Shown here piece by piece: positions 1,182 through 63,556 of a DNA stretch of 64,000 bases. The DNA lies in contig JAGLXN010000017.1 in NCBI GenBank assembly GCA_023132875.1, forward strand, positions 22,142 to 86,141, given 5' to 3'. The position numbers were made by a program, and so were the translations under genes. The notes under the pieces were generated by a model that ran no database searches, had not been told where the DNA came from, and was given only the letters and a program-made list of their open reading frames with translations. This DNA comes from Candidatus Parcubacteria bacterium. GTDB lineage: Bacteria > Patescibacteriota > Minisyncoccia > JAHIHE01 > JAGLIN01. Position 1 is the first letter of the stretch; each line of letters begins with the position of its first letter.

Positions 1182-1297
1182 GAATTCGTATAACATGTAA
1201 CGTGTAACTTATAACCTGTAATGCAATTTTTATCACACTCAGGTTACACGTTATACGTTATACGCCAACAATCTAACAATACAACAATTTAATGCTA

Positions 1298-6151: not shown

Positions 6152-6601
6152 ATGTCTCAAACTAAAATTACAAATACAAAGCAGATATCGTACAACAAAA
6201 TTAAAGTGATGACATTTGGAACTTTTGACATTTTTCATCCGGGACATGAAAGTTTTTTGAAGCAAGCGAGAAAGTTTGGAGATTATTTGATTGTTGTTAT
6301 TGCCAGAGATAAAACAGTTGGAATAGTCAAGAAAAGATTTTCACAAAATAATGAAATTAATAGGCAGCGGGCTGTAGTAAAAAGCAATTTAGCAGATAAG
6401 GTAATTCTTGGAAGCTTGAAAGATAAATATCAAGTGATTAAAAAATATCAGCCGGAAATTATTTGTCTGGGTTATGATCAAACAGTATTTATAGAAAATT
6501 TACGGGAGAAGTTAAAAGAGTTTGGCATGGAAAAAACCAAGATTGTAAAATTAAAGCCTTATTGTTCAGAGAAATATAAATCGTCTAAATTGAGAGATTA
6601 A
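6152..6601 (+). CDS. Cytidylyltransferase-like HxGH nucleotidyltransferase (RibL-type FMN adenylyltransferase-like; NMNAT-like not excluded)
   Basis: GTFDIFHPGH motif; the true start is probably at Met 6209 (MTFGTFD). Confidence 0.55.
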   Translation: MSQTKITNTKQISYNKIKVMTFGTFDIFHPGHESFLKQARKFGDYLIVVIARDKTVGIVKKRFSQNNEINRQRAVVKSNLADKVILGSLKDKYQVIKKYQPEIICLGYDQTVFIENLREKLKEFGMEKTKIVKLKPYCSEKYKSSKLRD

Positions 6602-6611
6602 ATTTTTTAAT

Positions 6612-6657
6612 AGCACGTAGACGAGCACTGACTAAAAATGCAAATAAACACAGATAT
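6612..6657. repeat. Repeat family E copy (AACACTGA / AACACAGA 8-mer units) 12 bp after the stop
   Basis: GACGAGCACTGACTAAAAATGCAAATAAACACAGATA; related copies at 8026 and 16757. Confidence 0.5.
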
Positions 6658-6760
6658 TATTACTAACTTAATGGTATTCTAGAAATGATTTACACTGACG
6701 AAATTAAAACAATGCAACCGATTGTTTTAAATGGTGATTTAACAAAAATTAACTAAAATT

Positions 6761-8014
6761 ATGTTAGATATAAAATTTATAAGAGAAAATCTGAATATTG
6801 TAAAGGAAGAGATTAAAAAAAGAGGGATGAAAATTGACTTAGATTCTTTTCTTGATTTAGACGAGCAAAAAAGAGAACTTCAACAGGAAGTGGAAAATTT
6901 AAGAAAAAAACAGAATGAGGCAAATAAAACTATTTCTCAAAGTAAAGATAAAAAGATTATTTCGAAAATGAAAGAGGTTAAATTAAAATTGTCTGAGTTG
7001 GAACCAAGGTTAAAAAATTTAGAGAAAAAACTAAAAGATATTTCACTACAACTACCGAATATAACTCATGAAAGTGTGCCAGTCGGATCGGATGAATTGG
7101 GAAATGTTGTTGTGAAAAAATGGGGAGAAAAACCAAAGTTTGATTTTTCGCCGAAAGAGCATTTTGAAATAGAAAGCGTTAAAAATTTAATTGACACCAA
7201 AAGAGGCGCAAAGGTTTCAGGGACGAGATTTTGGTATTTGAAAGGCGACTTGGCAAGATTGGAATTTGCTCTAATGCAATACGCTCTTGAATTTTATTCC
7301 AATAAAGGATTTGAACCGATGATTGTGCCAATGCTGGTCAGAGAGCCGGCGATGTATGGAACAGGATTTTTTCCGGCGGAGAAAAATGAAATTTACAATG
7401 TTAACGCTGATGAGGATAATTTATTTTTAGTCGGAACAGCGGAAGTTCCACTAGCGGCTTACCATATGAATGAAGTTTTGGATTTAGAAAACGGACCTAA
7501 AAAATATATGGGCTATTCAAGCTGTTTTCGCAGGGAGGCTGGAACTTACGGCAAAGATATAAAAGGGATTTTGCGCGGGCATCAATTTAATAAAATTGAA
7601 ATGTTTATTTTTTGTAAACCGGAAGAATCTTGGAATTTGCATGAAGAATTATTAAAATACGCGGAAGAATTTTTACAGTCTTTGAATTTGCATTATCAAG
7701 TTTTAAATATGTGCACGGGCGATATCGGCGCGCCGAACGCAAAAAAATACGATATTGAAACGTGGATACCGGGGCAAAATAAATACCGCGAGACGCATTC
7801 TTGTTCTAACGATACTGATTTTCAAGCGCGGAGATTAAATTGTAAGTTTACTGATAAGGATGGAAAGAAAAAATTTGTCCATACTTTAAATAACACCGGT
7901 TGCGCTGATCTGCGAGTTTTGATCGCCATTCTTGAAAACTACCAACAAAAAAACGGCACCATTATCGTGCCGGAGGTTTTAAGGAAATGGATAGGAAAGG
8001 ATGTTATTGAATAA
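6761..8014 (+). CDS. serS: Seryl-tRNA synthetase
   Basis: N-terminal coiled-coil arm; class II motifs FRREAG and GTAEVPL. Confidence 0.9.
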   Translation: MLDIKFIRENLNIVKEEIKKRGMKIDLDSFLDLDEQKRELQQEVENLRKKQNEANKTISQSKDKKIISKMKEVKLKLSELEPRLKNLEKKLKDISLQLPNITHESVPVGSDELGNVVVKKWGEKPKFDFSPKEHFEIESVKNLIDTKRGAKVSGTRFWYLKGDLARLEFALMQYALEFYSNKGFEPMIVPMLVREPAMYGTGFFPAEKNEIYNVNADEDNLFLVGTAEVPLAAYHMNEVLDLENGPKKYMGYSSCFRREAGTYGKDIKGILRGHQFNKIEMFIFCKPEESWNLHEELLKYAEEFLQSLNLHYQVLNMCTGDIGAPNAKKYDIETWIPGQNKYRETHSCSNDTDFQARRLNCKFTDKDGKKKFVHTLNNTGCADLRVLIAILENYQQKNGTIIVPEVLRKWIGKDVIE

Positions 8015-8025
8015 TTCGACACAGA

Positions 8026-8122
8026 CGAACACTGACTAAAGGCACTGACAAACACAGATAAAAATTTAAAATAATCAGTGTTCATTTGTGCCTTTGGTCT
8101 GTGTTTATCAGTGTGCTATTAA
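8026..8122. repeat. Repeat family E, full inverted-repeat copy filling the serS-hydrolase spacer
   Basis: Arm CACAGACGAACACTGACTAAAGGCACTGACAAACACAGAT and inverted arm ATCAGTGTTCATTTGTGCCTTTGGTCTGTGTTTATCAGTGTG. Confidence 0.55.
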
Positions 8123-8128: not shown

Positions 8129-9031
8129 ATGGACAATCCCCAAACCAAAATCTCTGAAAAACAAATTCAAATCAATGGTTTGAATATAAATTATAAAACA
8201 ATCGGCGATGGGAAAATCCCGATTGTTTTGTTGCATGGGTGGGGAGTGTCAAGCGATAAATATACAGAATTAATAAAAATATTATACTCAATACTCAATA
8301 CTCAATATTCAATATTCATCCTTGATCTTCCCGGATTTGGAAAAAGCGACGAACCGAAAGAAAACTGGAATTTGGATGATTATGTTGAGTTTGTGGATGA
8401 ATTTATTAAAAAGACAAGTAGAAAAGGCGGATTTGAGTTAGTTAAAAATATATTAGAGAAAATGCAAGAAGGCTCCACAGGGCTATCGCCACAATGGAGC
8501 CAACGATCTTCTTGTCGACAAAAACTAGTCTTAATCGGTCATTCGTTTGGCGGGAGAATTGCGATAAAATATGCTGTGAAATGCCCTGAAAAAATTGATA
8601 AATTGATTTTAACCGGAGCGGCGGGAATTAAGCGTAAATTGACCGTAAAACAGAAAATATTCTTTATTTTGGCAAAAATAGGAAAGAAAATTTTTTCTTT
8701 GCCGTTAATTAATAATTTAGAAAAATACGCGCAAAAAATATTATACAAAGCTACTAAGGAAAAAGATTATTACCAAGCCAGCCCGAGGATGAAAGAAGTA
8801 ATGAAAAATGTTTTAGATGAAGACTTAACAGATTATTTAGATAAAATAAAAAATCACACTTTATTAGTTTGGGGAAAAGAAGACAAAACCACGCCTTTAG
8901 CTGATGGAAAAATTATGAATGAGAAAATTGAGAATTCCAAGTTAATTGTGGTTGATGACGCTAATCATAGTTTGCCATATCAGAAGGCTGAGAAGTTTGT
9001 GAAAATTGTGGAAAAGTTTATAAAAAAATGA
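8129..9031 (+). CDS. Alpha/beta-hydrolase fold protein
   Basis: HGWG oxyanion region and GHSFGG nucleophile elbow; carries two in-frame inserts (a heptamer array and a GC-rich hairpin). Confidence 0.75.
   Translation: MDNPQTKISEKQIQINGLNINYKTIGDGKIPIVLLHGWGVSSDKYTELIKILYSILNTQYSIFILDLPGFGKSDEPKENWNLDDYVEFVDEFIKKTSRKGGFELVKNILEKMQEGSTGLSPQWSQRSSCRQKLVLIGHSFGGRIAIKYAVKCPEKIDKLILTGAAGIKRKLTVKQKIFFILAKIGKKIFSLPLINNLEKYAQKILYKATKEKDYYQASPRMKEVMKNVLDEDLTDYLDKIKNHTLLVWGKEDKTTPLADGKIMNEKIENSKLIVVDDANHSLPYQKAEKFVKIVEKFIKK
8286..8320 (+). repeat. In-frame heptanucleotide tandem array (ACTCAAT x3, ATTCAAT x2) inside the hydrolase ORF
   Basis: Seen directly; encodes ILYSILNTQYSIF. Confidence 0.7.
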
Positions 9032-9050
9032 AGAAGCAGGTTCTGCTCCT

Positions 9051-9278
9051 TCATATAAACGTAAATGGATTTTCTATTGACTCTGGGTCAATTTTAGCCA
9101 ATATTAGCAAATACAGCGCCAAAGCTGCTGCTATTATTACTATTATTGGTATAACTACAAATGTACCAAGTTGATATGACAATAACATATTTGGCAATAT
9201 TAACGATGTTAGTATTCCTCCAATTAAAAACAGGAACGCCAAAATAGTAAAAATCGTATTTTTTATAAGTTCATCCAA
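9051..9278 (-). CDS. Hypothetical small membrane protein (2 TM)
   Basis: Hydrophobic 75-aa ORF. Confidence 0.35.
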   Translation of the reverse strand: MDELIKNTIFTILAFLFLIGGILTSLILPNMLLSYQLGTFVVIPIIVIIAAALALYLLILAKIDPESIENPFTFI

Positions 9279-9317
9279 TTTAAAACCTCCGAATTTAGTA
9301 TATATTAAATAAAATTA

Positions 9318-10898
9318 ATGTCAATTATTTTAATTACAATATTAATATTATTTCTCATCAAAATTGTCCGTGATAGCTTGTTTTGTGTTTGGCTTTGGCA
9401 GGTGAAAGAATATCGGATAGATCGGATGAAATCTTATTTGAGAGACGAGAAAAGTATTATTTATAAAAATATTAATTATTTATTTGTTTTGATTTTATTT
9501 TTTATTTGCATTTTGGTTCCACAGCCATTCGGGACTATGGAACTAATGATTCTTATTTATTTAACGCTTTTATTTTTTACTTTTACTTTTTACCAAATTT
9601 TAATAGAAATAAAAGATAGAATTTTAAAAAGACCAAAGTTGACTTTTAAGATAATTCTAATATTTTTCATAGAAGCCACCTTTTATTTTTCGTTCTTTGT
9701 ATTTTACTGGATTCCCGCATTCGCGGGAATGACAAGACCTGCGGTCTTGATCCTACTATTACTATTTATTTATCTCATCACTCCTTTTTTAATTGCTACA
9801 ATTATTTTGTTAACAAATCCATTTTTTAATTTCCAAAAAAGAATAATAAAAAAAAAAGCCACCGAAAAAATGAAGGGATTGAAAAAAGTAAAAGTTATCG
9901 GTATTACGGGCAGTTACGGAAAGACAAGCACGAAAGAATTTCTATATGCGATATTGAACCAGAAATATAAAGTTGTAAAAACAGAAGGGAATAATAATAC
10001 GAATATCGGCGTGGCTTATACTGTTTTAAATAAAGTGAGTGATAAATATGATTATTTTATCTGTGAAATGGGCGCTTATAAAATTGGCGAAATCGCAGAA
10101 ATTTGTAAAATAGTAAAACCGGAAGTTGGAATTTTAACAGGAATTAACGAACAGCATATTGATTTATTTGGGTCTATTGAGAATACGGTTAAAGCGAAGT
10201 TTGAATTGATTGAGGCGTTGCCAGAGAACGGATTGGCGGTAATAAATGAAAAATTAAAAAATCAAAATGGAAAATTACAATTTAAAATTAAAAATGTTAA
10301 ATATTTTTCTTTGAACAATGTAAATGATATTAAAGTTTGTCAGGATTATGTAGGGTTTAATTATAAGAACTATAAATTTAAAACTAATCTTCTTGGCAAG
10401 CATTATATAGAAAATATTTTATCTGCTATAATGATAGCAGAATGTTTGGGAATAAGTTTGGATGAAATTGCAAAAGCAGTAGAGAAAATAAAACCGACTG
10501 AATTTATGATAAGAAAATTATACGGTCCAAATAATTCTATTTTTATTGATGACAGTTATAGCGCAAATCCTGATGGCGTAATCGCGGCGCTTGATTATTT
10601 AGATGAAGCGTATCAAGATTATAAAAAAATAATTGTTTTTCCAGGGATAATTGAATTGGGAAACAAGTCAAAAGAAGTGCATCAAAAATTATTTAGTAAA
10701 ATAGATAAAATTTGCGACTTTGCTTATATACTGAATACAGAATACAGAATACAGAATACTAATAACAAATTTGTTTTTGAGAAGGATTTTAATAAAGTGG
10801 CGAGAATGCTGAAAAATAATCTCAACGAAAAATCTGTTGTTCTTTTTGAAAGCCGGGGAGCGGGAGTGGCGATGGGAAAAGTAAAAATAGAAAAATAA
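9318..10898 (+). CDS. MurF-like Mur ligase with an N-terminal polytopic membrane domain of about 190 aa
   Basis: Mur ligase P-loop GITGSYGKTSTKE and C-terminal DDSYSANP signature; the N-terminus is strongly hydrophobic. Confidence 0.7.
   Translation: MSIILITILILFLIKIVRDSLFCVWLWQVKEYRIDRMKSYLRDEKSIIYKNINYLFVLILFFICILVPQPFGTMELMILIYLTLLFFTFTFYQILIEIKDRILKRPKLTFKIILIFFIEATFYFSFFVFYWIPAFAGMTRPAVLILLLLFIYLITPFLIATIILLTNPFFNFQKRIIKKKATEKMKGLKKVKVIGITGSYGKTSTKEFLYAILNQKYKVVKTEGNNNTNIGVAYTVLNKVSDKYDYFICEMGAYKIGEIAEICKIVKPEVGILTGINEQHIDLFGSIENTVKAKFELIEALPENGLAVINEKLKNQNGKLQFKIKNVKYFSLNNVNDIKVCQDYVGFNYKNYKFKTNLLGKHYIENILSAIMIAECLGISLDEIAKAVEKIKPTEFMIRKLYGPNNSIFIDDSYSANPDGVIAALDYLDEAYQDYKKIIVFPGIIELGNKSKEVHQKLFSKIDKICDFAYILNTEYRIQNTNNKFVFEKDFNKVARMLKNNLNEKSVVLFESRGAGVAMGKVKIEK
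9709..9753. repeat. Repeat family B hairpin (GGATTCCCGC-ATTC-GCGGGAATGAC plus AGACC-TGCG-GGTCT) inserted in-frame in the murF-like ORF
   Basis: Palindrome read directly; translates to IPAFAGMTRPAV. Confidence 0.6.
10733..10760 (+). repeat. In-frame heptamer tandem array (GAATACA x3, GAATACT) in the murF-like ORF
   Basis: Seen directly. Confidence 0.7.
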
Positions 10899-10933
10899 AA
10901 AAAGAAGTGTAGCTTATTATTTAAACTAAACTT

Positions 10934-11164
10934 CTAATATCCCGAACTTTCAACGCAGCACGAATTATTTAATGGAAAACCTTTTATTTCAGATTCTATT
11001 CTTGAGACCCCATCTTTTGAAAATTCAAACTTTAATTTACATTTTGGACATTTTGGATTTTCACCATTTATTTTGAAGTTTTCGTCTCTTTCAAAATAAG
11101 GTTTTTCTTTTCCTTCTGTATCAATGTGCTGATAGCAATAAGGACATACTATTATCATTTTCAT
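10934..11164 (-). CDS. Small zinc-ribbon protein (CPYC...CPKC)
   Basis: Two CxxC pairs, 76 aa. Confidence 0.5.
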   Translation of the reverse strand: MKMIIVCPYCYQHIDTEGKEKPYFERDENFKINGENPKCPKCKLKFEFSKDGVSRIESEIKGFPLNNSCCVESSGY

Positions 11165-11205
11165 TCAATCTCCTATTATCTTTAATTTAATATATAATAT
11201 ACACT

Positions 11206-12471
11206 ATGTCAATATTCAAAAAATTCCAACCAATCGCATCTGCACTTGCGCCGAATTATACTGTTTGGGATCTTTTAATTTGTGATAAATATCTATTATT
11301 GCCTTGGAATTGGGGGAAACTGCAAGAAGGAAAAAATACCAGAAAACTGGAAAGAAAATTTTGCGAATATATGGATTCAAGGTGGGCAATTAGTTTTGAT
11401 AGCGGACGAAGCGGTTTATATACGATTTTGAAGTGTCTTGAAATTAAAGATTACGATGAAATAATACTACAAGCATTTACAACAGTGGCTCTCCCAAATG
11501 TTATAATGTGGTGCGGAGCAAAACCGGTTTATGTTGATATAGATGAAAAAACTTATAATATAGATCCAGATAAAATCGAAGAAAAAATTACAGATAAAAC
11601 AAGAGTGATTATTGTTCAGCATACATTTGGTAATCCAGTAGAAATGGACAGGATTATGAAAATTGCCAGAAATCATAATTTATATGTCATTGAAGATTGC
11701 GCGCATTCTTTGGGAGGGAAATATAAAAACAAAAAAACAGGGACAATAGGAGATATAGCTTTCTTTAGTTTTGGAAGAGATAAAATTATTTCTTCTGTTT
11801 CAGGAGGAATGGTTATAACGGCAAATCAAGAACTTGGGGGAAAAATAAAAGAATTTAGAGATCAAATGCCATATCCTAAAAAATCTTTAATAGTAAGACA
11901 GCTCTTGCATCCTATAATAACTTTTAAGGCTTTAAAATTATATTATTTTTTCAATATTGGAAAAATCATAATGTATTTATCCAGTAAATTTGAAATTATA
12001 ACAAAAGCTTATAGCAAAGAAGAAAAAATAAACCAAAAACCAGATAATTTTCCCGCAAAAATGCCAAACGCACTTGCCGGAATTGCACTACATCAGATGA
12101 AACTTATTAATAAATTTAATAGCCACAGAATAAAAATTGCAAATTTATATAAAGAAAAATTATCTGATAATATAAACATAAGTTTAACAAAATCAACCCC
12201 CGAATCAAAAAATATATTTTTATGGTATACTATCTTAGTTGAAAATAAAAAAGAACTTATTAAAAAAGCTCGAAAAAAACATATAATTTTAGGCAGTTGG
12301 TTTCCGCAGGCAGTTGGACCGATTGAAGTTGATGTTGAAAAATCTGGCTATAAAAAAGGCAGCTGTCCAATTGCGGAAAAGATAAGCTTGAAGTGCGTCA
12401 ATTTACCGACACATCATAATATAGACAATAAAGATGTTGAGAAGATGGTAAAAGTGATAAATGATTATTAA
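11206..12471 (+). CDS. DegT/DnrJ/EryC1/StrS-family PLP-dependent sugar aminotransferase
   Basis: DCAHSLGG...FSFGRDKIISSVSGGMV pattern. Confidence 0.7.
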   Translation: MSIFKKFQPIASALAPNYTVWDLLICDKYLLLPWNWGKLQEGKNTRKLERKFCEYMDSRWAISFDSGRSGLYTILKCLEIKDYDEIILQAFTTVALPNVIMWCGAKPVYVDIDEKTYNIDPDKIEEKITDKTRVIIVQHTFGNPVEMDRIMKIARNHNLYVIEDCAHSLGGKYKNKKTGTIGDIAFFSFGRDKIISSVSGGMVITANQELGGKIKEFRDQMPYPKKSLIVRQLLHPIITFKALKLYYFFNIGKIIMYLSSKFEIITKAYSKEEKINQKPDNFPAKMPNALAGIALHQMKLINKFNSHRIKIANLYKEKLSDNINISLTKSTPESKNIFLWYTILVENKKELIKKARKKHIILGSWFPQAVGPIEVDVEKSGYKKGSCPIAEKISLKCVNLPTHHNIDNKDVEKMVKVINDY

Positions 12472-12490
12472 TTAATCCTTCTTAGTATTT

Positions 12491-13519
12491 ATGAATATTA
12501 AAGAAATAACAAATAAATCCCAATGGGAAAATTTTGTTCAAGAAAACAAAGAAAGTACTTTTCTGCAATCTTGGAATTGGGGAGAATTCAATAGAAACAC
12601 AGGAGAAAAAATCTGGCGACTTGGAGTTTTTGACAATGAAGAACTTTTAGCAGTCGCGCTAGTTATAAAAGTAAACGCAAGGAGAGGATCATTTTTATTT
12701 GTTCCGCAGGGACCAATAATAAAGGTATTCAGTATTCAGTATTCAGTATTCAGTATATTAAATGAATTTTTTGATTATTTAAAAGATCTTGGAATAAAAG
12801 AAAGGGTTGGATTTATTCGCGTTAGTCCGATTTTAAAAAATACTGAAGAAAATTTGAATATTTTTGAAAAAGCAGGATTTAGAAACGCGCCGATTCATAT
12901 GATGCACCCAGAAACAACTTGGCTTTTAGATATTACAAAAAGCGAGGATGAAATTTTAAAAGGAATGAGAAAAACGCATAGAAATTTAATTCGTCGCGCG
13001 GCAAAAGAAGATGTTAAAATTATACAAAGCACGGATGAAGAATATCTTAAAGCGTTTTATGATATTCATATGGAAACTGTCCGGCGGCATAAATTTGTCC
13101 CGTTCCCCTATGATTATATAAAGAGCGAAACTGACGCGTTTAAAAACGACGATCAAATAAGCATATTTTCCGCAAAATATAAAGGTGAAATAATTTCATC
13201 CGCTATTATAATATTTTATGGAGAACAAGCTTTTTATCATCATGGCTCATCATCGTCAAAGTATTATAAAATTCCATCATCATATTTAAATCTTTGGGAA
13301 GCAATTAAGGAAGCAAAAAAAAGAGGAAAGAAGAAATTTAATTTTTACGGTATTGTTGAAAATAAGCCGAAACATCCTTGGGCTGGATTGTCAAAATTTA
13401 AAAAAGGATTTGGCGGACACCAAGAGGAACTATTACATTGCCAGGATTTGCCGTTGAATAGAAAATACGCGATTACATGGGTTGTTGAAACAATAAGGAA
13501 AGTTAGAAGAGGATATTGA
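12491..13519 (+). CDS. FemAB-family peptidoglycan interpeptide-bridge peptidyltransferase-like protein
   Basis: N-terminal QSW.WGEF signature region; GNAT-like size. Confidence 0.55.
   Translation: MNIKEITNKSQWENFVQENKESTFLQSWNWGEFNRNTGEKIWRLGVFDNEELLAVALVIKVNARRGSFLFVPQGPIIKVFSIQYSVFSILNEFFDYLKDLGIKERVGFIRVSPILKNTEENLNIFEKAGFRNAPIHMMHPETTWLLDITKSEDEILKGMRKTHRNLIRRAAKEDVKIIQSTDEEYLKAFYDIHMETVRRHKFVPFPYDYIKSETDAFKNDDQISIFSAKYKGEIISSAIIIFYGEQAFYHHGSSSSKYYKIPSSYLNLWEAIKEAKKRGKKKFNFYGIVENKPKHPWAGLSKFKKGFGGHQEELLHCQDLPLNRKYAITWVVETIRKVRRGY
12724..12751 (+). repeat. In-frame heptamer tandem array (GTATTCA x4) in the FemAB-like ORF
   Basis: Seen directly; encodes SIQYSVFSI. Confidence 0.7.
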
Positions 13520-13523: not shown

Positions 13524-13566
13524 GAATCAGGAATCAGGAATCAGGAATTATGAATTAGGAATTAAG
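13524..13566. repeat. GAAT-core heptamer array (GAATCAG x3, GAATTAT, GAATTAG, GAATTAA) right after the FemAB-like stop
   Basis: Seen directly. Confidence 0.7.
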
Positions 13567-13629
13567 AACTTTCTATTTTTATAAAAATGCTTAGATGTTT
13601 ATTAGAAATGTTTATTGTAATAGATAAAA

Positions 13630-13656: not shown

Positions 13657-13720
13657 AATTTGTAATTTTTAAAATAAATTCCATAGTTTCATATAACATA
13701 CAATCCATAATTCATGATTC

Positions 13721-14752
13721 ATGATCCGTAATTTCAAGTTTAGAAGAAAAAGAATAAAACCATGGCAGCGAAAACCAAGGATTTTTGCGAGTCACAAACC
13801 TATTTTTTTTAAAAAAAATAAAAGCGGTTCTGCTAAAAATCTTAAAAGGGGATTATTGATAGCGTTTGTTTTTTTTGTCGCGTATTTTATTTTTTTCTCG
13901 GAGTTTTTTATAATTAAAAAAATAGATATAAATGGAAACAAAACCATTTCCAATAAAAACATAGAAAAAATCATAAAAAATGAAAACTCAAATCCGATTT
14001 TAGCAATTTTTCCTGGAAATAATTTTTTTCTTACTAACGAGGAAAAAATAGAAAAAAAACTGCTTAGCGAGTTTTCAGAGATCAAAACAATAACAATTAA
14101 AAAAAAGCTTCCAGATACTATAAAAGCGGAGATTGTAGAAAAAAATCCTCTTATTCTTTGGTGCAGAACTGAAAGCTGTTATTATCTTGACACTGAAGGA
14201 ATAGCTTTTATGGCTGAAAGCAGTGATACAGAAGCATATAAAGACAAAAAATTTATAAAAATTATAGAAGAGGTAAAAATTAAAGAAGAGATAGAAGATG
14301 AATTAGAAAGAGAGAAAGAAGAAAAGGAAACTAAGCCAGTGTTTTTAGATAATATTCAAAATACAATTGATTCTGAAATTTCTGATAATCCAGAGCATGA
14401 TGAAAGAGAAAATGATAAAAAAAATGAAGACAAAAATATCATACTAGAACCAATAAAAATAAATGATAAGATCGCGAATGAAGATTTTATAAATTTTGTT
14501 TTTAAATTAGATAATAGCATTAAAAGCGACACTGATATAAAAATTAAATATTATAAGACAAAGGGAGTAAAAACAAGAGAGATAATCGCGTATTCAGATA
14601 AAAACATAAGAATTTATTTTAATACTGCAGATGACGCGAAATTACAAACAACATATCTAAAAGATTTTATGTCTAAAGGAATTGGTAAAAATGAAATAAA
14701 TACATTAGAATATATATACCTTAAATCTGGAAATAAGATTTTTTATAAATAA
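13721..14752 (+). CDS. ftsQ: FtsQ/DivIB-like cell division protein (TM + POTRA) with an acidic insertion
   Basis: TM segment followed by a POTRA-like pattern I.INGN...LPDTIKAEIVEKNPLILWC. Confidence 0.55.
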   Translation: MIRNFKFRRKRIKPWQRKPRIFASHKPIFFKKNKSGSAKNLKRGLLIAFVFFVAYFIFFSEFFIIKKIDINGNKTISNKNIEKIIKNENSNPILAIFPGNNFFLTNEEKIEKKLLSEFSEIKTITIKKKLPDTIKAEIVEKNPLILWCRTESCYYLDTEGIAFMAESSDTEAYKDKKFIKIIEEVKIKEEIEDELEREKEEKETKPVFLDNIQNTIDSEISDNPEHDERENDKKNEDKNIILEPIKINDKIANEDFINFVFKLDNSIKSDTDIKIKYYKTKGVKTREIIAYSDKNIRIYFNTADDAKLQTTYLKDFMSKGIGKNEINTLEYIYLKSGNKIFYK

Positions 14753-16360
14753 TTGAAATTTAAAATAATTAAAATGAAAAAAATACGAACAAGATTTGCG
14801 CCAAGCCCGACGGGATATCTTCATGTTGGAAGTTTAAGAACTGCGTTATATAATTATCTGTTTGCCAAACATAATAACGGCGATTTTATCCTGCGTATTG
14901 AAGATACGGATAAAGCAAGGTTTGTGGAGGGTTCTATTGAAAATTTAGTGAAAATATTGGACCTAATCGAGCTGAAATATAATGAAGGTGTATTTGTAGA
15001 TAATGACGGAAAAATCTCTCAAAAAGGCAATTTTGGGCCATATATACAATCTGAAAGGCTAGAAATATATAAAAAATATGTTGACAAGCTAATAAAAAAT
15101 GATTATGCATATTTTTGCTTCTGTAGTCAAGAACGGCTGGAAGAAATGAGAAAAGAACAGCAAGCGCAAAAAATGGCTCCTAAGTATGACGGAAAGTGCA
15201 GGGGACTGGATAAAAAAGAAATTCAAAGGCTTCTCGATAAAAAAACTCCCTATGTTGTTCGTCTAAAAACTCCGCAGGAAGGATTTACCGAATTTGATGA
15301 TCTAGTTTATGGAAAAATAAAAATTGAAAACAAGGTAATTGATGATCAAGTTTTGATGAAGTCCGATGGATTTCCAACATATCATTTGGCAAATGTCATT
15401 GATGATCATTTAATGGAAATTTCACATGTCATTCGGGGAGAGGAATGGCTTCCATCAACTCCAAAGCATGTTATTTTATATAAAGCGTTTGGGTGGGATA
15501 TGCCAGAGTTTGCTCATCTACCACTTCTTCTTAATCCCGATAAAAGCAAATTGAGTAAACGTCAGGGCGATGTCGCAGTAGAAAATTATCTAAAAAAAGG
15601 ATATTTACCAGAAGCATTGTTAAACTTTATATTATTACTTGGTTGGAATCCTAAAACTGAAGAAGAAATTTTTTCATTTGATGAAATGATAAAAAGATTT
15701 GATTTGTCTGGAGTTAATAAAACGGGAGCTATTTTCAGTGTAGAAAAACTGGATTGGATAAATGGAACGTATATTCGTTGTATGCCGCTTGAAGAACTTA
15801 CCGAACTTTGTGTTCCATATTTGATTGAGGCAGGATTGATAGAAAGAATTATGAATTATGAATTAAGAATAAAGAATAAAATTCAAAATTCAAAATTCTC
15901 CTCCCGAGGCGGATCAGCCTTGGGCTGGAAGATTCAAAATTCTGATAAGGAAGTAGATTTTGATTATTTAAAAAAAGTTATTGCGCTTGAACAGGAACGG
16001 ATGAAGAAATTGAGTGAGATAGGGGAGCTGGTAAAATTTATCTTTGTTGATAAATTAGATTATGATAAAGATTTACTGGTATGGAAAAAAATGAGCTTTG
16101 AAGAGGTAAAAAATAATTTAGAATTAGCTTATGATGAATTAGAAAAAATAGACGAGAAAGATTTTGTGAAAAATAATTTGGAAGAAGTTTTGAGAAATTT
16201 AATGGGACGAGAGGGGATTAAGACGGGAGAATTGTTATGGCCCTTGCGAGTAGCTTTGACTGGCCTGAAAGGATCACCAGGACCGTTTGAAGTGGCAAGC
16301 GTTTTGGGAAAGGGAAAAGCTTTAAAGAGGATCAGAAAGGTAATTGAATTATTGAGATAA
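14753..16360 (+). CDS. gltX: Glutamyl-tRNA synthetase
   Basis: HIGH (PSPTGYLHVGS) and KMSKS-like (KLSKR) motifs; contains an in-frame repeat insertion. Confidence 0.9.
   Translation: MKFKIIKMKKIRTRFAPSPTGYLHVGSLRTALYNYLFAKHNNGDFILRIEDTDKARFVEGSIENLVKILDLIELKYNEGVFVDNDGKISQKGNFGPYIQSERLEIYKKYVDKLIKNDYAYFCFCSQERLEEMRKEQQAQKMAPKYDGKCRGLDKKEIQRLLDKKTPYVVRLKTPQEGFTEFDDLVYGKIKIENKVIDDQVLMKSDGFPTYHLANVIDDHLMEISHVIRGEEWLPSTPKHVILYKAFGWDMPEFAHLPLLLNPDKSKLSKRQGDVAVENYLKKGYLPEALLNFILLLGWNPKTEEEIFSFDEMIKRFDLSGVNKTGAIFSVEKLDWINGTYIRCMPLEELTELCVPYLIEAGLIERIMNYELRIKNKIQNSKFSSRGGSALGWKIQNSDKEVDFDYLKKVIALEQERMKKLSEIGELVKFIFVDKLDYDKDLLVWKKMSFEEVKNNLELAYDELEKIDEKDFVKNNLEEVLRNLMGREGIKTGELLWPLRVALTGLKGSPGPFEVASVLGKGKALKRIRKVIELLR
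15846..15948. mobile_element. Repeat family A element (GAAT heptamers plus GC-rich core CCTCCCGAGGCGGATCAGCCTTGGGCTGG) inserted in-frame in gltX
   Basis: Core matches the copies at 36568, 50467 and 63030; encodes MNYELRIKNKIQNSKFSSRGGSALGWKIQNS. Confidence 0.65.
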
Positions 16361-16756: not shown

Positions 16757-16862
16757 CAAATCAGTGTTTATTTGTATATTTGTCGGCACTTATCGGTATG
16801 CTATTGAATAATTAGACACAGAAAAACACTGACTTCCGGCATTGATGAACACAGATACTAAT
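16757..16862. repeat. Repeat family E copy (AACACWGA units in inverted arrangement)
   Basis: ATCAGTGTTTATTTGT ... GACACAGAAAAACACTGACTTCCGGCATTGATGAACACAGATA. Confidence 0.5.
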
Positions 16863-33309: not shown

Positions 33310-33428
33310 TTTGTTTTTTAAAAATAATAGCCCGAAATAAATTCAGGCCGTCAACAAAATATCAATTATTAAAACTCTTAAAAAATAAAATTCTCATATT
33401 ATTATATTTATATCCTTGTTTTATATTT

Positions 33429-33472
33429 AACAATATAGCAATGGAACAATACAACAATTTAAATTACAATTC
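33429..33472. repeat. Repeat family C (ACAATACAACAAT motif cluster)
   Basis: AACAATATAGCAATGGAACAATACAACAATTTAAATTACAATTC. Confidence 0.5.
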
Positions 33473-34738: not shown

Positions 34739-34744
34739 AGAATT

Positions 34745-34847
34745 ATATTGTTAAATTGTTGTATTGTTAAATTGTTGTATTGTTTTGCCTATTGCTTATT
34801 CAACGATTTAATCCAACAATACAGCAATGTAACAATATAACAATAAT
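34745..34847. repeat. Repeat family C, large palindromic copy (ATTGTTGTATTGTT x2 ... AACAATACAGCAATGTAACAATATAACAAT) upstream of secY
   Basis: Seen directly. Confidence 0.6.
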
Positions 34848-34853: not shown

Positions 34854-35285
34854 TTATATGTTTCTTATTTCCCCGCCCGCTTTCTTGATTTTTTCCTCGG
34901 CATTTTTAGATATTGCACATTCTTCAATAATAATTTTTTTAGTCAAATCTCCATTTCCAAGGATTTTAACTCTCGGCTTTATTTTGCTTATCAACCCCTT
35001 TTTTAATAAAATTTTAGCGCTTATAATATCCCCGTCTTGAAAATTATTTTCCAAAGCAGAAACATTAACTACATTATTTTTATCATATATACTCTTAAAT
35101 CCCCTTAGTTTCGGAGTTCTTCTAAAAAGCGGAGTCTTAGTTCCTTCAAAGCTTTTTCCCTTGCCTCCGCCAGACCTTGCTTTCTGTCCTTTTGTTCCGC
35201 GAGTAGCAGTAGTCCCATGGGGTCCGCCGCGACCGACTCGCTTCTTTGCTTTTTTCTTGCTCGGTTTTAATTGATGTAATTGCAT
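34854..35285 (-). CDS. rplO: 50S ribosomal protein L15
   Basis: Gly/Arg-rich N-terminus RVGRGGPHGTTATRG. Confidence 0.9.
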   Translation of the reverse strand: MQLHQLKPSKKKAKKRVGRGGPHGTTATRGTKGQKARSGGGKGKSFEGTKTPLFRRTPKLRGFKSIYDKNNVVNVSALENNFQDGDIISAKILLKKGLISKIKPRVKILGNGDLTKKIIIEECAISKNAEEKIKKAGGEIRNI

Positions 35286-35373
35286 AAAATCATTTTAACA
35301 TATAAACATACTAACATTTTAACATACTAACATTTATTGTTAAAATATTTGATTAAGCAAATAATATAACAAT

Positions 35374-37607: not shown

Positions 37608-37705
37608 GAATATTGAATTATGAATTTAGAATTACGAATTACGAATTACGAATCGACGATATTTTACAATCTTCATGATTCATAATTCATAATTCATAAT
37701 TCATC
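37608..37705. repeat. GAAT-core heptamer arrays in inverted orientation (GAATTAC x3 ... ATAATTC x3) in the rpsH-rpsN spacer
   Basis: Seen directly. Confidence 0.7.
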
Positions 37706-40395: not shown

Positions 40396-40421
40396 AAAAT
40401 CATTTTAACATATAAACATAA

Positions 40422-42052: not shown

Positions 42053-42053
42053 T

Positions 42054-49811: not shown

Positions 49812-50037
49812 CTATTTTTTATTTTTTGAGACATTTAGAAGTATAGTGTCTTTCAATGCGACCGCATGGAAAAATGCTATATCTAATTTTTATTCATTTT
49901 CATTTCTAACAATCTTGATAAAGAAGGATATTTATAAATAACTTTTGTTTTTAAGTAAACTTTTTTCGTATCTTCAAATGTAAACTTTTGCGGTTTCATA
50001 ATTCATTATTCATTATTCTAAATTCAAGATTCAATCA

Positions 50038-62692: not shown

Positions 62693-63532
62693 TTATTTTT
62701 TCAAAACCATCCACCCAAATTTTATCGTCGCGTTATAAATTCGTTTTATTCTTCGCGGATTCAAGATCAATCGCCACAGCCATTCCAATCCCAATTTTTG
62801 GAAAATCAATGGCGCGCGTTTGACTTCACCAGATATAAAATCAAACGATCCGCCGACTCCAATTGCCAGCTTTACGCTTGGCAATTTTTTTAAGTTCTCA
62901 TAAATCCATTCTTCCTGTTTAGGAACGCCAAACGCAACGAGTATTATATCTGGTTTTGTTCTATTTATCCGCTGAATTAATTCTTCATTTAACTTATGAA
63001 ACTTATTATTATAAGAATTTGGAATTTTTCCTCCCAAGGCGGACCAGCCTTTGGCTGGGAATTTGGAATTTTGAGATTTATTTGGTATTTGGTATTTGGT
63101 ATTTGGTATTTCAAACCACATTCCCTCCTCCGCGCCCACGATATTTAAACGATCATACTTTTTAGATAAAACTTTTGCGGCTTCTCCCGCTATCCCTTCT
63201 CCCGCTCCTAATAAATATATCTTTTTACCTTTTATAAGTTCAGATTCACAGATTTTATAAATTAAATTAATACCCGTAATTTTTTCGGGCAATGTTTTAT
63301 GATTTAAAAATTTGTTCGCAAATAAAATTCCTGTTCCATCCGGAATAATAATATCGGCTTCATTTATAATTTTTTTAAAGTGATTATTTTTTCGAGCTTC
63401 AACAACCATTTCTGGGTTTAGTGTTACAATATAATGTTGTTGATCCGATAATAAAAAACTCTTGATTTTTTCAAGAACTTCTTTTGTTGTAATCTTATTT
63501 ACTTTTACATCTAATATTTTTTCATAATTCAT
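62693..63532 (-). CDS. WecB/TagA/CpsF-family glycosyltransferase carrying an in-frame family A repeat insertion
   Basis: N-terminal WecB/TagA-like region IIIPDGTGI; insertion encodes EIPNTKYQIPNKSQNSKFPAKGWSALGGKIPNS. Confidence 0.65.
   Translation of the reverse strand: MNYEKILDVKVNKITTKEVLEKIKSFLLSDQQHYIVTLNPEMVVEARKNNHFKKIINEADIIIPDGTGILFANKFLNHKTLPEKITGINLIYKICESELIKGKKIYLLGAGEGIAGEAAKVLSKKYDRLNIVGAEEGMWFEIPNTKYQIPNKSQNSKFPAKGWSALGGKIPNSYNNKFHKLNEELIQRINRTKPDIILVAFGVPKQEEWIYENLKKLPSVKLAIGVGGSFDFISGEVKRAPLIFQKLGLEWLWRLILNPRRIKRIYNATIKFGWMVLKK
63015..63112. mobile_element. Repeat family A element (core CCTCCCAAGGCGGACCAGCCTTTGGCTGGG plus ATTTGGT x4 heptamers) in-frame inside the wecB-like gene
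   Basis: Core matches 15899, 36568 and 50467. Confidence 0.65.
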
Positions 63533-63556
63533 AATTTATTCTTTAAACCTAAGAAG

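What the first reader, a model, noticed from the sequence alone, without database searches (positions are those of the whole stretch)
8286..12751. In-frame heptanucleotide tandem arrays with related units in three consecutive cell-envelope genes
Three arrays lie inside coding sequence without breaking the frame: ACTCAAT x3 + ATTCAAT x2 in the alpha/beta hydrolase (8286..8320), GAATACA x3 + GAATACT in the MurF-like ligase (10733..10760), and GTATTCA x4 in the FemAB-like gene (12724..12751). The units are permutations or complements of a common (G/C)AGTATT core. A 7-bp unit is not a multiple of three, so gain or loss of one unit by slipped-strand mispairing would frameshift these genes. This is a possible phase-variation switch for envelope modification, or a signature of a repeat-seeding process specific to this genome.
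Basis: partly seen in the sequence, partly recalled or inferred. Interest (0 to 1): 0.6.

Follow-up and report, generated by a model that had tools for sequence, protein, structure and literature searches.

The report
Conserved in-frame heptamer arrays in Parcubacteria
The three 7-base repeat arrays are real and far from chance, but they are not on/off switches for cell-wall genes: they belong to a widespread, poorly understood class of roughly 32-base heptamer arrays, and in this group of ultra-small bacteria the arrays sit at fixed, tolerant spots inside conserved genes.

Summary
Observation confirmed. The window holds 8 exact period-7 arrays of at least 3 copies, against 0 expected.

The arrays are neither envelope-specific nor genome-specific. 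Others lie in gltX, in wecG and between genes. Related Parcubacteria carry period-7 arrays at the same codon positions of the hydrolase, murF (two sites), femX-like and gltX genes, but with different units.

At the fem site, 22 of 119 orthologue clusters encode a peptide compatible only with a perfect heptamer array. Eleven units occur, several linked by single unit-wide substitutions, and protein length stays at 341/342 aa. No frameshifted allele was seen. This contrasts with the NeuO heptanucleotide switch, which has 3-53 repeats and is 66% OFF.

Intergenic arrays differ by ±1 unit between strains that are 99.7% identical, so the arrays are hypermutable. Half share a GAAT-N-A-N unit. Modal length is 4.4-4.6 units, as in the known heptameric repeats of Xanthomonas and Nostoc. 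GC-rich palindromic mini-elements sit inside the arrays.

Best reading: these are STRR-like heptameric arrays evolving in concert under frame and stop-codon constraints. Phase variation is unlikely. Their function is unresolved.

The parts
8284..8318 (+). Heptamer array (ATACTCA)x3 (ATATTCA)x2 in the alpha/beta-hydrolase CDS (8129-9031), encoding roughly residues 53-64 (YSILNTQYSIF).
   Evidence: Orthologues carry arrays with other units at the same position: L012 AATTCAC, L009 CTACAAA, L004 AAATATT, L014 and L065 CAATTTT.
10728..10759 (+). Heptamer array (GAATACA)x3.9 in the MurF-like CDS (9318-10898), residues about 471-481. Called site murF3 in this report.
   Evidence: Same position in L004 (GAATACC type), L005, L016 and L065 (GAATCAA x4.9, perfect) and L012 (AATCAAA).
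12725..12756 (+). Perfect heptamer array (GTATTCA)x4.6 in the FemAB/FemX-like CDS (12491-13519), residues 79-89 (VFSIQYSVFSI), directly after the conserved FVPQGP motif.
   Evidence: In 22 of 119 orthologue clusters the peptide is compatible with a perfect heptamer array.
10244..10295 (+). Decayed period-7 tract (73% match) at a second MurF site (murF2). Relatives have good arrays here.
   Evidence: L006, L070, L007 and L014 have AGTATTA-type units, L005 and L021 have GAAT-type units, and L065 has (GAATCAA)n split by a 21-nt GC-rich insert.
13524..13568 (+). Intergenic array GAATCAG x3, GAATTAT, GAATTAG, GAATTAA, starting 5 nt after the fem stop codon.
   Evidence: It is one unit shorter and has two substitutions in strain L002, which is 99.7% identical overall.
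13704..13727 (+). Array of ATTCAT-type units, inverted relative to the array at 13524. It overlaps the ftsQ start codon at 13721.
   Evidence: It is one unit longer and homogenised in L002.
15843..15898 (+). Two adjacent arrays inside gltX (14753-16360): a GAATTAT/GAATTAA/GAATAAA tract, then (AAAATTC)x3.
   Evidence: The same codon position carries (AAGTATC/AAGTATT) arrays in L007, L017 and L064.
15899..15928 (+). 30-nt GC-rich double palindrome TCCTCCCGAGGCGGATCAGCCTTGGGCTGG, in frame inside gltX and abutting the arrays.
   Evidence: The window has four copies, against 0 expected.
63079..63111 (-). Perfect array (ATACCAA)x4.7 on the coding strand of the WecG/TagA-family gene (62693-63532, minus strand), encoding IPNTKYQIPN.
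   Evidence: A 95%-identical relative has one substitution in it.
63029..63058 (+). Second in-frame copy of the 30-nt GC-rich core, flanked on both sides by GAATTTG GAATTTT heptads.
37608..37704 (-). Intergenic inverted pair of GAATTAY arrays (37608-37653 and 37672-37704), predicted to fold into a hairpin with a stem of about 30 bp.
   Evidence: The minus-strand RNA folds at -37.6 kcal/mol, z = -7.05.
49995..50018 (+). Intergenic array (TTCATTA/TTCATAA)x3.4 next to a tRNA gene (50041-50113). Further period-7 tracts lie at 50194-50240.
63521..63544 (-). GAATTAT-type array overlapping the wecG start codon (ATGAATTATGAA).
   Evidence: (family D9).
8471..8501 (+). GC-rich palindrome GGCTCCACAGGGCTATCGCCACAATGGAGCC, in frame in the hydrolase and inside an insertion at residues about 97-130.
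   Evidence: Related palindromes occupy the heptamer-array sites of hyd and murF in L005, L006, L007, L016 and L017.

Best explanation
The three arrays belong to a clade-wide class of short heptameric tandem arrays. This class resembles the STRR-like 'heptameric SSRs' already reported from cyanobacteria, Xanthomonas and Beggiatoaceae.

What is shown:
- Period 7 is specifically over-represented.
- Arrays have a modal length of 4.4-4.7 units (30-35 nt).
- Half of them share a GAAT-N-A-N unit, on either strand.
- They are about 7-fold denser between genes than within genes.
- Intergenic arrays often form inverted, hairpin-capable pairs and gain or lose single units between near-identical strains.
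- Inside genes they occupy a few fixed positions encoding variable, non-catalytic segments: hydrolase, MurF (two sites), FemX-like, GltX and WecG.
- These positions are shared across many related Parcubacteria lineages.
- Within a gene site the unit sequence changes in all units together, while copy number and reading frame stay constant.
- Where a unit would create an in-frame stop codon, the unit in that phase is edited.

What is inferred:
- Arrays arise and are homogenised by slipped-strand or out-of-register template switching at 7-nt units.
- Purifying selection removes every frame-breaking length and every stop codon.
- Recombination between lineages shuffles array alleles.
- The arrays act as preferred landing or retention sites for GC-rich palindromic mini-elements.

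The encoded 10-12 residues are passengers in a tolerant loop. The arrays do not act as ON/OFF switches.
For: Non-randomness and period specificity:
- 8 exact arrays against 0 expected in the window.
- In 312 kb of related loci, 25 arrays of period 7 against 5 of period 8, 4 of period 9 and none of periods 4-6 or 10-12.

Positional conservation with different units:
- fem site in win, L007, L017, L014, L006, L021, L011, L018, L064, L065, L067 and L068.
- hyd site, murF3 site, murF2 site and gltX site.

Concerted evolution at constant length:
- 22 of 119 fem clusters encode a 10-aa peptide exactly compatible with a perfect heptamer array. The chance of that for a random peptide is about 1e-9.
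- Eleven units occur, including the one-step series GTATTCA, GTATCCA, ATATCCA, ATATCAA, GTATCAA, ATACCAA.
- Proteins are 341/342 aa.

Hypermutability:
- Window against L002 is 99.74% identical over 5.4 kb.
- Both internal indels are single 7-nt units in the two intergenic arrays.
- 4 of 14 substitutions lie in about 70 nt of array sequence.

Frame and stop constraints:
- No frameshifted hyd, murF or fem gene was found in about 18 loci.
- GAATCTG GAATTTT GAATTTT GAATTTG in L064 and L006 carries G exactly where a perfect (GAATTTT)n would read TGA in frame.
- gltX shows the same effect.

Shared unit type: 19 of 38 arrays are GAAT-class. Within-array mismatches per position are 2, 0, 2, 1, 12, 2, 16.

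Class features match published heptameric repeats:
- A preference for four units, conserved positions 1-4 and 6, over-representation in non-coding DNA, inverted tandems, and the same intergenic places in related species with variation in length and sequence (Rehm et al. 2015, PMC4692102).
- Heptanucleotide repeats are the most abundant long SSR class in most genomes, with polymerase slippage proposed as the cause (Mrazek et al. 2007, as summarised in PMC4679880).

Array peptides align to variable, non-catalytic segments of solved FmhB/FemX and MurF structures.
Against: - No read-level data were available, so slippage at the CDS arrays is not measured.
- Homogenisation without any change in length is inferred, not shown. 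Simple ±1-unit slippage would pass through frameshifted intermediates in essential genes.
- The sharp modal length (4.4-4.6 units) also appears in 177 arrays of unrelated IMG/VR contigs with GC 0.22-0.63. Identical AT-rich arrays are repeated within GC-rich contigs. The core positions are conserved. These features look more like a length-defined functional or mobile element than an open-ended microsatellite.
- Divergent tracts around the fem array in otherwise about 93%-identical genes extend up to roughly 50 nt beyond the array. This points to allele replacement rather than in-situ change in at least some cases.
Confidence: 0.6

Rival explanations
1. The arrays are functional cis-elements. 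About five 4-nt cores spaced 7 nt apart (roughly 32 nt) would be read by a multimeric or multi-domain factor, one module per heptad. Candidates are a ribbon-helix-helix protein on DNA, as for the omega protein of pSM19035, or cold-shock/S1-type OB folds on single-stranded nucleic acid. Selection for this signal would keep the arrays intact even inside coding sequence.
For: - Positions 1-4 and 6 are conserved while 5 and 7 vary.
- Array length is sharply modal both here and in unrelated contigs.
- Arrays abut start and stop codons and form inverted pairs.
- Arrays persist at the same gene sites across lineages whose silent sites are probably saturated (inference from 60-85% protein identity).
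- Imperfect arrays keep the GAAT core.
- The pSM19035 centromere needs at least 4 contiguous heptads in either orientation (PMC9499535).
- CspB binds heptamer repeats, one protein per heptamer (as reviewed in PMC4679880).
Against: - Half of the arrays lack the GAAT core, and units differ widely within one genome (ATACTCA, TATTTGG, CAATTTT).
- Units within a genome are not significantly more alike than units between genomes (p = 0.23 and 0.11).
- Both orientations occur within genes on one strand, which argues against an RNA-level reader.
- Many orthologues have decayed arrays or none, with no evident consequence.
- No candidate binding protein was found among ten uncharacterised ORFs at 9.0-24.5 kb of the window.
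Confidence: 0.2
2. The arrays are parts or targets of very small mobile elements. The AT-rich heptad tracts would be the arms or landing pads of GC-rich palindromic mini-elements (21-30 nt and longer) that spread in frame through genes. Arrays without a core would be empty or decayed sites. This would resemble the SDR elements in heptameric repeats of Nostoc and the Rickettsia palindromic elements.
For: - The 30-nt core occurs 4 times in the window, always embedded in heptad-like AT-rich flanks, and twice in frame in genes next to arrays.
- A 21-nt GC-rich insert splits (GAATCAA)n in L065 with the unit phase kept.
- An exact 30-nt insert distinguishes P0018 from P0036 at the fem array.
- Different GC-rich palindromes occupy the hyd, murF2 and murF3 array sites in L004-L007, L010, L012, L016 and L017, with remnants of the heptamers at their edges.
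- Multi-unit strings such as GAATCAGGAATTAGGAATTAAGAA recur at non-orthologous sites.
Against: - Most arrays have no core.
- The one-step unit series at the fem site indicates in-situ evolution rather than repeated insertion.
- No transposase or RAYT-like gene was seen among the window ORFs that were scanned. Only about 20 ORFs were scanned.
- No target-site duplication accompanies the 30-nt insert.
Confidence: 0.13
3. The arrays are contingency loci. Gain or loss of one unit would frameshift the hydrolase, MurF and FemX-like genes and reversibly switch envelope modification.
For: - A 7-nt unit does shift the frame.
- Intergenic arrays of the same class change by ±1 unit between strains.
- Heptanucleotide switches exist: NeuO (PMC13001214) and the HMW1A promoter (PMC8262952).
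Against: - The arrays have only 4-5 units.
- They are not at the 5' end of the genes.
- They also occur in essential gltX and murF.
- Copy number is invariant and no OFF allele was seen in any locus or orthologue cluster examined.
- CDS arrays are identical in strains whose intergenic arrays differ.
Confidence: 0.05

Closest known systems
Heptameric SSRs of bacteria: GGGAATC / GGGGA(C/T)T repeats of Xanthomonas and Nostoc (Rehm et al. 2015, PMC4692102), and the general excess of heptanucleotide SSRs (Mrazek et al. 2007, as cited there and in PMC4679880)
   Same: - Tandem 7-nt units dispersed over the genome.
- Clear preference for about four units.
- Positions 1-4 and 6 conserved, 5 and 7 variable.
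- Over-represented in non-coding DNA, within about 50 nt of gene ends.
- Inverted tandem pairs.
- The same places in related species, with variation in sequence and length.
   Different: - The units here are AT-rich (GAAT-N-A-N and others) and cannot form the G-quadruplexes invoked for that family.
- The host is an ultra-small Parcubacteria genome.
- Several arrays lie in frame inside conserved genes at codon positions shared across a clade. [quoted passage not shown]
TAACTGA direct repeats of marine Beggiatoaceae, cyanobacteria and Bacteroidetes (MacGregor 2015, PMC4679880)
   Same: - Heptamer direct repeats of 2-6 copies, mainly intergenic and next to start codons.
- Patchy phylogenetic distribution.
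- Stop codons in the unit limit where it can enter coding sequence.
- The reverse orientation is translatable.
   Different: - One dominant unit there, many units here.
- Here the arrays are embedded in core genes and evolve in concert at constant copy number.
Cyanobacterial STRR heptanucleotide repeats (three tandem heptanucleotides in Calothrix PCC 7601, cited in PMC4692102) and the SDR mini-elements of Nostoc (Elhai et al. 2008, Genome Res 18:1484, listed in the references of PMC3116915). Details of SDRs lying inside heptameric repeats are from my own recollection; the paper could not be read here.
   Same: - Tandem heptamers as a genome-wide class.
- Hairpin-capable elements of 21-30 nt found inside the heptamer tracts.
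   Different: - A different phylum and different sequences.
- Here both the arrays and the mini-elements are in frame inside genes.
- Sequence relatedness to the SDR families was not tested.
NeuO heptanucleotide VNTR (5'-AAGACTC-3')n of E. coli K1 (PMC13001214)
   Same: A 7-nt unit inside a coding sequence. Translation is full-length only when the repeat number keeps the frame.
   Different: - NeuO has 3-53 repeats at the 5' end of a phage-borne accessory gene.
- 66% of genomes are OFF, and ±1 variants are measurable within a culture.
- Here there are 4-5 units, mid-gene or near the 3' end, invariant in number, never OFF, and in core genes.
Heptad operator/centromere of pSM19035 bound by the ribbon-helix-helix protein omega (PMC9499535)
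   Same: Contiguous 7-bp heptads in direct or inverted orientation. At least 4 contiguous heptads are needed for activity.
   Different: - The consensus is different.
- That system is a plasmid promoter/centromere with a known partner protein.
- No partner is known here, and units vary between arrays.
Rickettsia palindromic elements and other in-frame MITE-like insertions (reviewed in PMC10969869; PMC1779305)
   Same: Repeated palindromic DNA tolerated in frame within conserved protein genes. This applies to the GC-rich cores that accompany the arrays.
   Different: RPEs are 100-150 bp and are not tandem heptamers. The arrays themselves are not palindromic.

Membership tests
SSR-mediated phase-variable (contingency) gene, e.g. 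NeuO | Repeat number differs among strains or genomes, with frequent out-of-frame alleles | tested here: not met
   0 frameshifts in 16 hyd, 18 murF and 15 fem genes. fem is 341/342 aa in about 80 array-bearing clusters. CDS arrays are identical in strains whose intergenic arrays differ. NeuO by contrast has 3-53 repeats and is 66% OFF.
SSR-mediated phase-variable (contingency) gene, e.g. NeuO | Long repeat tract at the 5' end of the gene or in its promoter | tested here: not met
   The arrays have 4.6-5.0 units, at residues about 53-64 of 300, 471-481 of 526 and 79-89 of 342.
SSR-mediated phase-variable (contingency) gene, e.g. NeuO | The gene is dispensable and encodes a surface or modification function | tested here: not met
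   Arrays of the same class lie in gltX and murF. That these genes are essential is general knowledge, not tested here.
SSR-mediated phase-variable (contingency) gene, e.g. NeuO | Within-population length heterogeneity at the tract | not testable with these tools
   No read data were available. Only assemblies from several samples could be compared.
Heptameric SSR / STRR-like arrays | 7-nt tandem units in strong excess over other unit sizes | tested here: met
   In one search, 58 kb of further loci gave 12 arrays of period 7, 3 of period 8 and 4 of period 9.
Heptameric SSR / STRR-like arrays | Preference for about four units | tested here: met
   Perfect arrays are 30-35 nt, 4.3-5.0 units. The mode is 4.4-4.6 in 177 arrays of other contigs. 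The published preference is for four units.
Heptameric SSR / STRR-like arrays | Family consensus with conserved positions 1-4 and 6 and variable positions 5 and 7 | tested here: met
   Mismatches per position are 2, 0, 2, 1, 12, 2, 16 in 19 GAAT-class arrays, binomial p = 2e-7 with some ascertainment bias. This matches the (GGGANTN)n pattern.
Heptameric SSR / STRR-like arrays | Over-representation in non-coding DNA near gene ends | tested here: met
   The window has about 9 arrays in the 18% of sequence outside long ORFs and 6 in the 82% inside them (my count; ORF fraction). They abut the fem stop, the ftsQ start, the wecG start and a tRNA gene.
Heptameric SSR / STRR-like arrays | Under-representation in coding sequence (published families) | tested here: inconclusive
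   Density is lower in CDS. Even so, six CDS arrays in 64 kb, at sites conserved across the clade, is more than the published families report. No whole-genome census was possible.
G-quadruplex-forming heptamer repeats (Rehm et al. 2015) | At least four G-tracts of 3 or more G | tested here: not met
   The units contain 0-2 G.
Omega-type RHH heptad operator/centromere | At least 4 contiguous 7-bp heptads, direct or inverted | tested here: met
   compared.
Omega-type RHH heptad operator/centromere | One shared heptad consensus across all sites, and a cognate RHH protein | tested here: inconclusive
   Units are heterogeneous. No RHH hit was found in ten uncharacterised ORFs of the window. The rest of the 831-kb genome was not available.
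SDR-type mini-elements within heptameric repeats (Elhai et al. 2008) | Hairpin-capable elements of 21-27 nt located inside tandem heptamers | tested here: met
   A 21-nt insert sits in (GAATCAA)n of L065. A 30-nt core sits in the arrays of gltX and wecG. The defining feature is recalled from memory; the paper is not held.
SDR-type mini-elements within heptameric repeats (Elhai et al. 2008) | Sequence homology to the SDR1-8 families | not tested

The most novel reading that the evidence does not exclude
Heptad arrays are length-defined cis-elements of about 32 nt (five 4-nt cores and four spacers). An as-yet unknown factor reads them, one module per heptad, and they are actively rewritten in place. 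In these Parcubacteria the signal is superimposed on the coding sequence of essential genes and kept for the whole clade. This would explain the long-noted but unexplained excess of heptameric repeats in bacteria and their preference for four units, without invoking G-quadruplexes.
Probability: 0.2. Interest if true: 0.8.

Novelty: new variant of a known kind. Interest (0 to 1): 0.55.

Why it matters
Heptanucleotide repeats have been noted since 2007 as the most over-represented long simple repeats in many bacteria. Their cause and role are still unknown, and the only detailed study explained the four-unit preference by G-quadruplex formation.

The arrays here show the same architecture: about four units, positions 1-4 and 6 conserved, inverted pairs, and placement at gene ends. 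They are AT-rich, so the G-quadruplex explanation cannot be general.

Some arrays are locked inside conserved genes at the same codons in more than a hundred lineages. That makes them a natural experiment. Length is held constant by the reading frame, so unit-wide substitutions become visible (the GTATTCA, GTATCCA, ATATCCA... series), and a length-neutral homogenising process can be quantified.

For genome annotation of CPR bacteria, these tracts should not be read as phase-variable genes, and the odd 10-12-residue loop peptides should not be read as functional motifs. GC-rich palindromic mini-elements nest in frame within the arrays, which points to an undescribed layer of very small repeat elements in Patescibacteria.

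Tried and rejected
1. Genome-specific unit (a trans-acting template or specificity). Units within a genome are not significantly more alike than units between genomes. Permutation gave p = 0.23 for all arrays and p = 0.11 for CDS arrays stratified by site. Only the murF2/murF3 pairs in L005 and L065 share identical units.
2. Apparent frameshift of murF in L017 at the array site. It turned out to be a degenerate partial duplicate of the murF 3' end, lying downstream of an intact 545-aa gene.
3. Inversion of arrays between close relatives. The L065 array (GTTCAAA)n is the reverse complement of (GAATTTT)n in L064 with one change per unit. With 14 rotations and strands of AT-rich heptamers this cannot be told apart from chance, so it was left open.
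4. Pairing between the murF and fem arrays as RNA. The two are complementary in 6 of 7 positions by inspection (no fold was run), but other genomes show no such complementarity.
5. DGR-type, telomerase-like or retron-type templated rewriting. Dropped because units differ at all base types and no single template fits.
6. DNA uptake sequences. Dropped because the units are too heterogeneous.
7. Rfam at the gathering threshold finds only two tRNAs in the window.
8. Pfam on ten uncharacterised ORFs found no RHH protein, transposase or reverse transcriptase.
9. The single metagenome scan with DegT returned only three short relatives.
10. IMG/VR contigs rich in heptamer arrays have no match in the phage collection, so their hosts remain unknown.
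11. Elhai et al. 2008 could not be read.

Full report
**1. The observation**

All three arrays are present.
- Hydrolase CDS (8129-9031): ACTCAAT x3, ATTCAAT, then ATTCATC, at 8286-8320. TRF reports 8284-8318, 5.0 copies.
- MurF-like CDS (9318-10898): GAATACA x3 plus GAATACT at 10733-10760.

The ORFs are intact and carry Pfam matches on both sides of the arrays.

The arrays are not chance events. The window has 8 exact period-7 arrays of at least 3 copies, against a mean of 0.0 in 30 third-order Markov simulations. No such excess appears for periods 4, 6 or 9-12.

The other five exact arrays lie in these places:
- just after the fem stop codon (13524);
- inside gltX (15878);
- as an intergenic inverted pair (37629 and 37678);
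- inside a WecG/TagA-family gene (63079, minus strand).

TRF adds several imperfect arrays. The phenomenon is therefore not confined to three envelope genes. A DegT-type aminotransferase gene also separates murF from fem.

**2. Source and relatives**

The FemX-like protein is encoded on an 831-kb metagenomic scaffold and in two further assemblies. NCBI names the proteins 'Candidatus Parcubacteria bacterium'.

A scan of one genome per species with the MurF-like protein returned about 18 syntenic loci (hyd-murF-degT-fem-ftsQ). They come from Parcubacteria, Paceibacterota and other Patescibacteria MAGs with 47-72% MurF identity.

In 312 kb of these loci plus the window, TRF finds 25 arrays of period 7, 5 of period 8, 4 of period 9, and none of periods 4-6 or 10-12.

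**3. Same codons, different units**

At the fem site, directly after the conserved FVPQGP motif, arrays of 4.3-4.7 units occur with these units:

| Locus | Unit |
|---|---|
| window | GTATTCA |
| L014 | GTATTCG / GTACTCA |
| L007, L067 | ATATCCA |
| L021, L011 | GTATCAA |
| L018, L065 | GTTCAAA |
| L017, L068 | GTCAAAA / GTTAAAA |
| L006, L064, L070 | GAATTTT type |

The other sites behave the same way.
- Hydrolase site: ATACTCA (window), AATTCAC (L012), CTACAAA (L009), AAATATT (L004), CAATTTT (L014, L065).
- murF3 site: GAATACA (window), GAATACC type (L004), GAATTAA/GAATCAG (L005), GAATCAA (L016; perfect x4.9 in L065), AATCAAA (L012).
- murF2 site: decayed in the window (10244-10295), but good arrays in L005, L006, L007, L014, L021, L065 and L070.
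- gltX site: the window, L007, L017 and L064 all carry arrays at the same codons.

More distant orthologues have ordinary sequence of nearly the same length at these positions. The arrays therefore occupy, rather than extend, a variable segment.

When the window proteins are aligned to solved FmhB/FemX and MurF structures, the array-encoded residues fall in variable, non-catalytic segments.

**4. Concerted evolution at constant copy number**

I took the 120 best FemX-like clusters, which are grouped at 90% identity so that each is a separate lineage (119 could be scored). I then asked whether the peptide after the GP motif could be encoded by a perfect heptamer array.
- 22 peptides match exactly over 10 residues, and 5 more match with one mismatch. 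Only 11,256 of 20^10 possible peptides are compatible.
- Eleven different units are implied.
- Several units are linked by single substitutions present in every unit: GTATTCA, GTATCCA, ATATCCA, ATATCAA, GTATCAA, ATACCAA. A second group is AGTCAAA, AGTCGAA, AATCAAA.
- The proteins are 341 or 342 aa throughout. One cluster (P0072) looks like a loss of 7 aa, i.e. three units.

The unit sequence thus turns over in concert while the number of units does not change.

Array alleles do not follow the gene tree closely. Genes 93-95% identical outside the array can carry unrelated arrays. In L067 against L068, the divergent tract covers the array plus about 50 nt downstream, which looks like allele exchange by recombination.

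**5. Constraints of the reading frame**

No hyd, murF or fem gene in the loci is frameshifted. The one apparent case, L017 murF, is a degenerate duplicate fragment downstream of an intact gene.

A heptamer array is read in all three codon phases, so its unit must be free of stop codons in every phase. Where it is not, the unit in the offending phase is edited.
- In L064 and L006 the array reads GAATCTG GAATTTT GAATTTT GAATTTG. A perfect (GAATTTT)n would give two in-frame TGA codons exactly where the G residues are.
- In the window's gltX, GAATTAT GAATTAT is followed by GAATTAA, where TGA would otherwise be in frame.

This shows a pressure towards certain units that coding selection has to counteract.

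**6. Hypermutability**

The window and L002 (another sample) are 99.74% identical over 5.4 kb.
- The only two internal indels are single 7-nt units, one in each of the two intergenic arrays between fem and ftsQ.
- 4 of the 14 substitutions lie in those roughly 70 nt.
- The CDS arrays of fem and gltX are identical in the two strains.

A 95%-identical WecG relative and a 96%-identical FemX relative each differ by one point substitution in the array and not in length.

**7. Shared features of the class**

- 19 of 38 arrays in the window and related loci have a GAAT core, on either strand.
- Within those arrays, mismatches between units fall at positions 5 and 7. Counts per position are 2, 0, 2, 1, 12, 2, 16.
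- Arrays are about 7-fold denser outside long ORFs (my count; ORF fraction).
- They abut stop and start codons and tRNA genes.
- They occur as inverted pairs. The pair at 37608-37704 is predicted to fold into a roughly 30-bp hairpin at -37.6 kcal/mol, z = -7.

The three units in the finding resemble each other more than random 7-mers do (P about 0.007), but no more than arrays of this clade generally do (P about 0.13). Units are not significantly genome-specific.

**8. Not unique to this lineage**

The exact string (GAATTAT)3.6 occurs in 57 IMG/VR contigs. Many of these carry numerous other period-7 arrays, up to 16 in 12.7 kb, at GC contents from 0.22 to 0.63.
- Of 177 arrays, 143 lie outside ORFs of at least 120 aa.
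- The copy-number histogram peaks sharply at 4.4-4.6.
- Identical AT-rich arrays recur within GC-rich contigs, often right next to start codons.

These contigs match nothing in the phage collection, so their hosts are unknown.

**9. Companion elements**

A 30-nt GC-rich double palindrome, TCCKCCCRAGGCGGAYCAGCCTTKGGCTGG, occurs four times in the window against 0 expected. It is always set in heptad-like AT-rich flanks. Two of the copies are in frame, inside gltX and wecG, next to the arrays.

Further cases point the same way.
- In L065 a 21-nt GC-rich insert splits (GAATCAA)n at the murF2 site and keeps the unit phase.
- P0018 differs from P0036 by an exact 10-residue (30-nt) insert in the fem array.
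- Other GC-rich palindromes (GGCTCCA...TGGAGCC, GGGCTTCAGCCC... and others) occupy the hyd, murF2 and murF3 array sites in L004-L007, L010, L012, L016 and L017. Heptamer remnants remain at their edges.
- The window's hydrolase has one such palindrome at 8471-8501.

**10. Comparison with what is known**

No paper on such arrays in Patescibacteria was found. The class itself is known.
- Heptanucleotide repeats are the most abundant long SSRs in most bacterial genomes. It was proposed that 7 nt matches the stretch of DNA contacted by the polymerase and so favours slippage (Mrazek et al. 2007, as summarised in PMC4679880 and PMC4692102).
- Rehm et al. 2015 (PMC4692102) described (GGGANTN)n repeats in Xanthomonas and Nostoc. 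[quoted passage not shown] They attributed the four-unit preference to G-quadruplexes.
- The arrays here reproduce that architecture but are AT-rich, so G-quadruplexes cannot be the general explanation.
- TAACTGA repeats of Beggiatoaceae (PMC4679880) and the STRR heptamers of cyanobacteria are further members.
- From memory, the 21-27-nt SDR elements of Nostoc lie within heptameric repeats (Elhai et al. 2008; the paper is not held here).
- The NeuO switch differs in every diagnostic respect.
- The omega-protein heptads of pSM19035 are a structural analogue only.

**11. Verdict**

The phase-variation interpretation is unlikely. The 'repeat-seeding process' reading is right in kind, but the process is clade-wide and related to a known, unexplained class of repeats.

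What appears new:
- the arrays sit in frame at conserved codon positions of core genes in Parcubacteria;
- concerted unit turnover at fixed length is visible directly;
- GC-rich mini-palindromes nest inside the arrays;
- the four-unit/positions 1-4+6 architecture exists without any G-tracts.

What remains unknown:
- the mechanism of length-neutral homogenisation;
- the reason for the roughly 32-nt modal length;
- any function of the arrays.

Noticed in passing
window 15899-15928, 36568-36597, 50463-50492, 63029-63058: A 30-nt GC-rich double palindrome (TCCKCCCRAGGCGGAYCAGCCTTKGGCTGG) occurs four times against 0 expected. Two copies are in frame inside gltX and wecG. Two are intergenic and belong to a 92-nt repeat family. 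A fifth copy is in L064.
   Followed up: partly
window 8471-8501; L005, L006, L007, L010, L012, L016, L017 hyd and murF genes: Several families of GC-rich palindromic elements (GGCTCCA...TGGAGCC, GGGCTTCAGCCC..., CCCCCCAACCCCC...GGGGGG) are inserted in frame into conserved genes, resembling Rickettsia palindromic elements. They sit at exactly the heptamer-array sites.
   Followed up: partly
window 1258-1291, 33428-33461, 34814-34847, 42023-42056, 45142-45183, 58949-58982: A separate family of about 32-nt arrays with an 8-nt period, (R)ACAATNN x4, with the ACAAT core conserved and the spacers variable. They abut gene ends. Inverted partners (TTATATTG / TATTGTTA) lie at 34743-34784 and 41934-41966.
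   Followed up: no
window 35283-35334, 40393-40420, 62108-62135: Another 8-nt-period repeat family (CATAnnAA-type). Two 28-nt copies, 5 kb apart, are 100% identical.
   Followed up: no
window 47881-48356 (inside ORF 47838-49811, minus strand): A 189-nt tandem repeat of 2.5 copies at 82% identity within a 657-aa ORF, i.e. a 63-residue protein repeat.
   Followed up: no
window 6597-6661, 8001-8065, 16798-16862: A 65-nt dispersed intergenic repeat (ACACAGA..CACTGAC..AACACAGAT) found downstream of three plus-strand genes.
   Followed up: no
window about 16-20 kb: GC skew and AT skew change sign, and gene orientation switches from the plus to the minus strand (convergent). This is compatible with a replication terminus or simply with coding-strand bias.
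   Followed up: no
L017 2018-2208: A degenerate partial duplicate of the murF 3' end lies just downstream of the intact murF gene, as if the gene's 3' end had been replaced.
   Followed up: partly
L087, L089 (IMG/VR contigs, GC about 0.6): Period-7 arrays (GGAGTCY)x4.4 that repeat a Shine-Dalgarno-like GGAG every 7 nt sit between ORFs, alongside AT-rich (GAATTAT)x4.4 arrays that lie directly upstream of start codons.
   Followed up: no
L069 1476-1513 (fem site): At the same fem codons, one lineage has an 8-nt-period array (AAAAATCA x3.4) instead of a heptamer array.
   Followed up: no
window 9318-9900 (MurF-like N-terminus): The MurF-like protein has a hydrophobic N-terminal extension of about 190 residues, upstream of the Mur ligase domains. 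It is conserved in the related loci.
   Followed up: no
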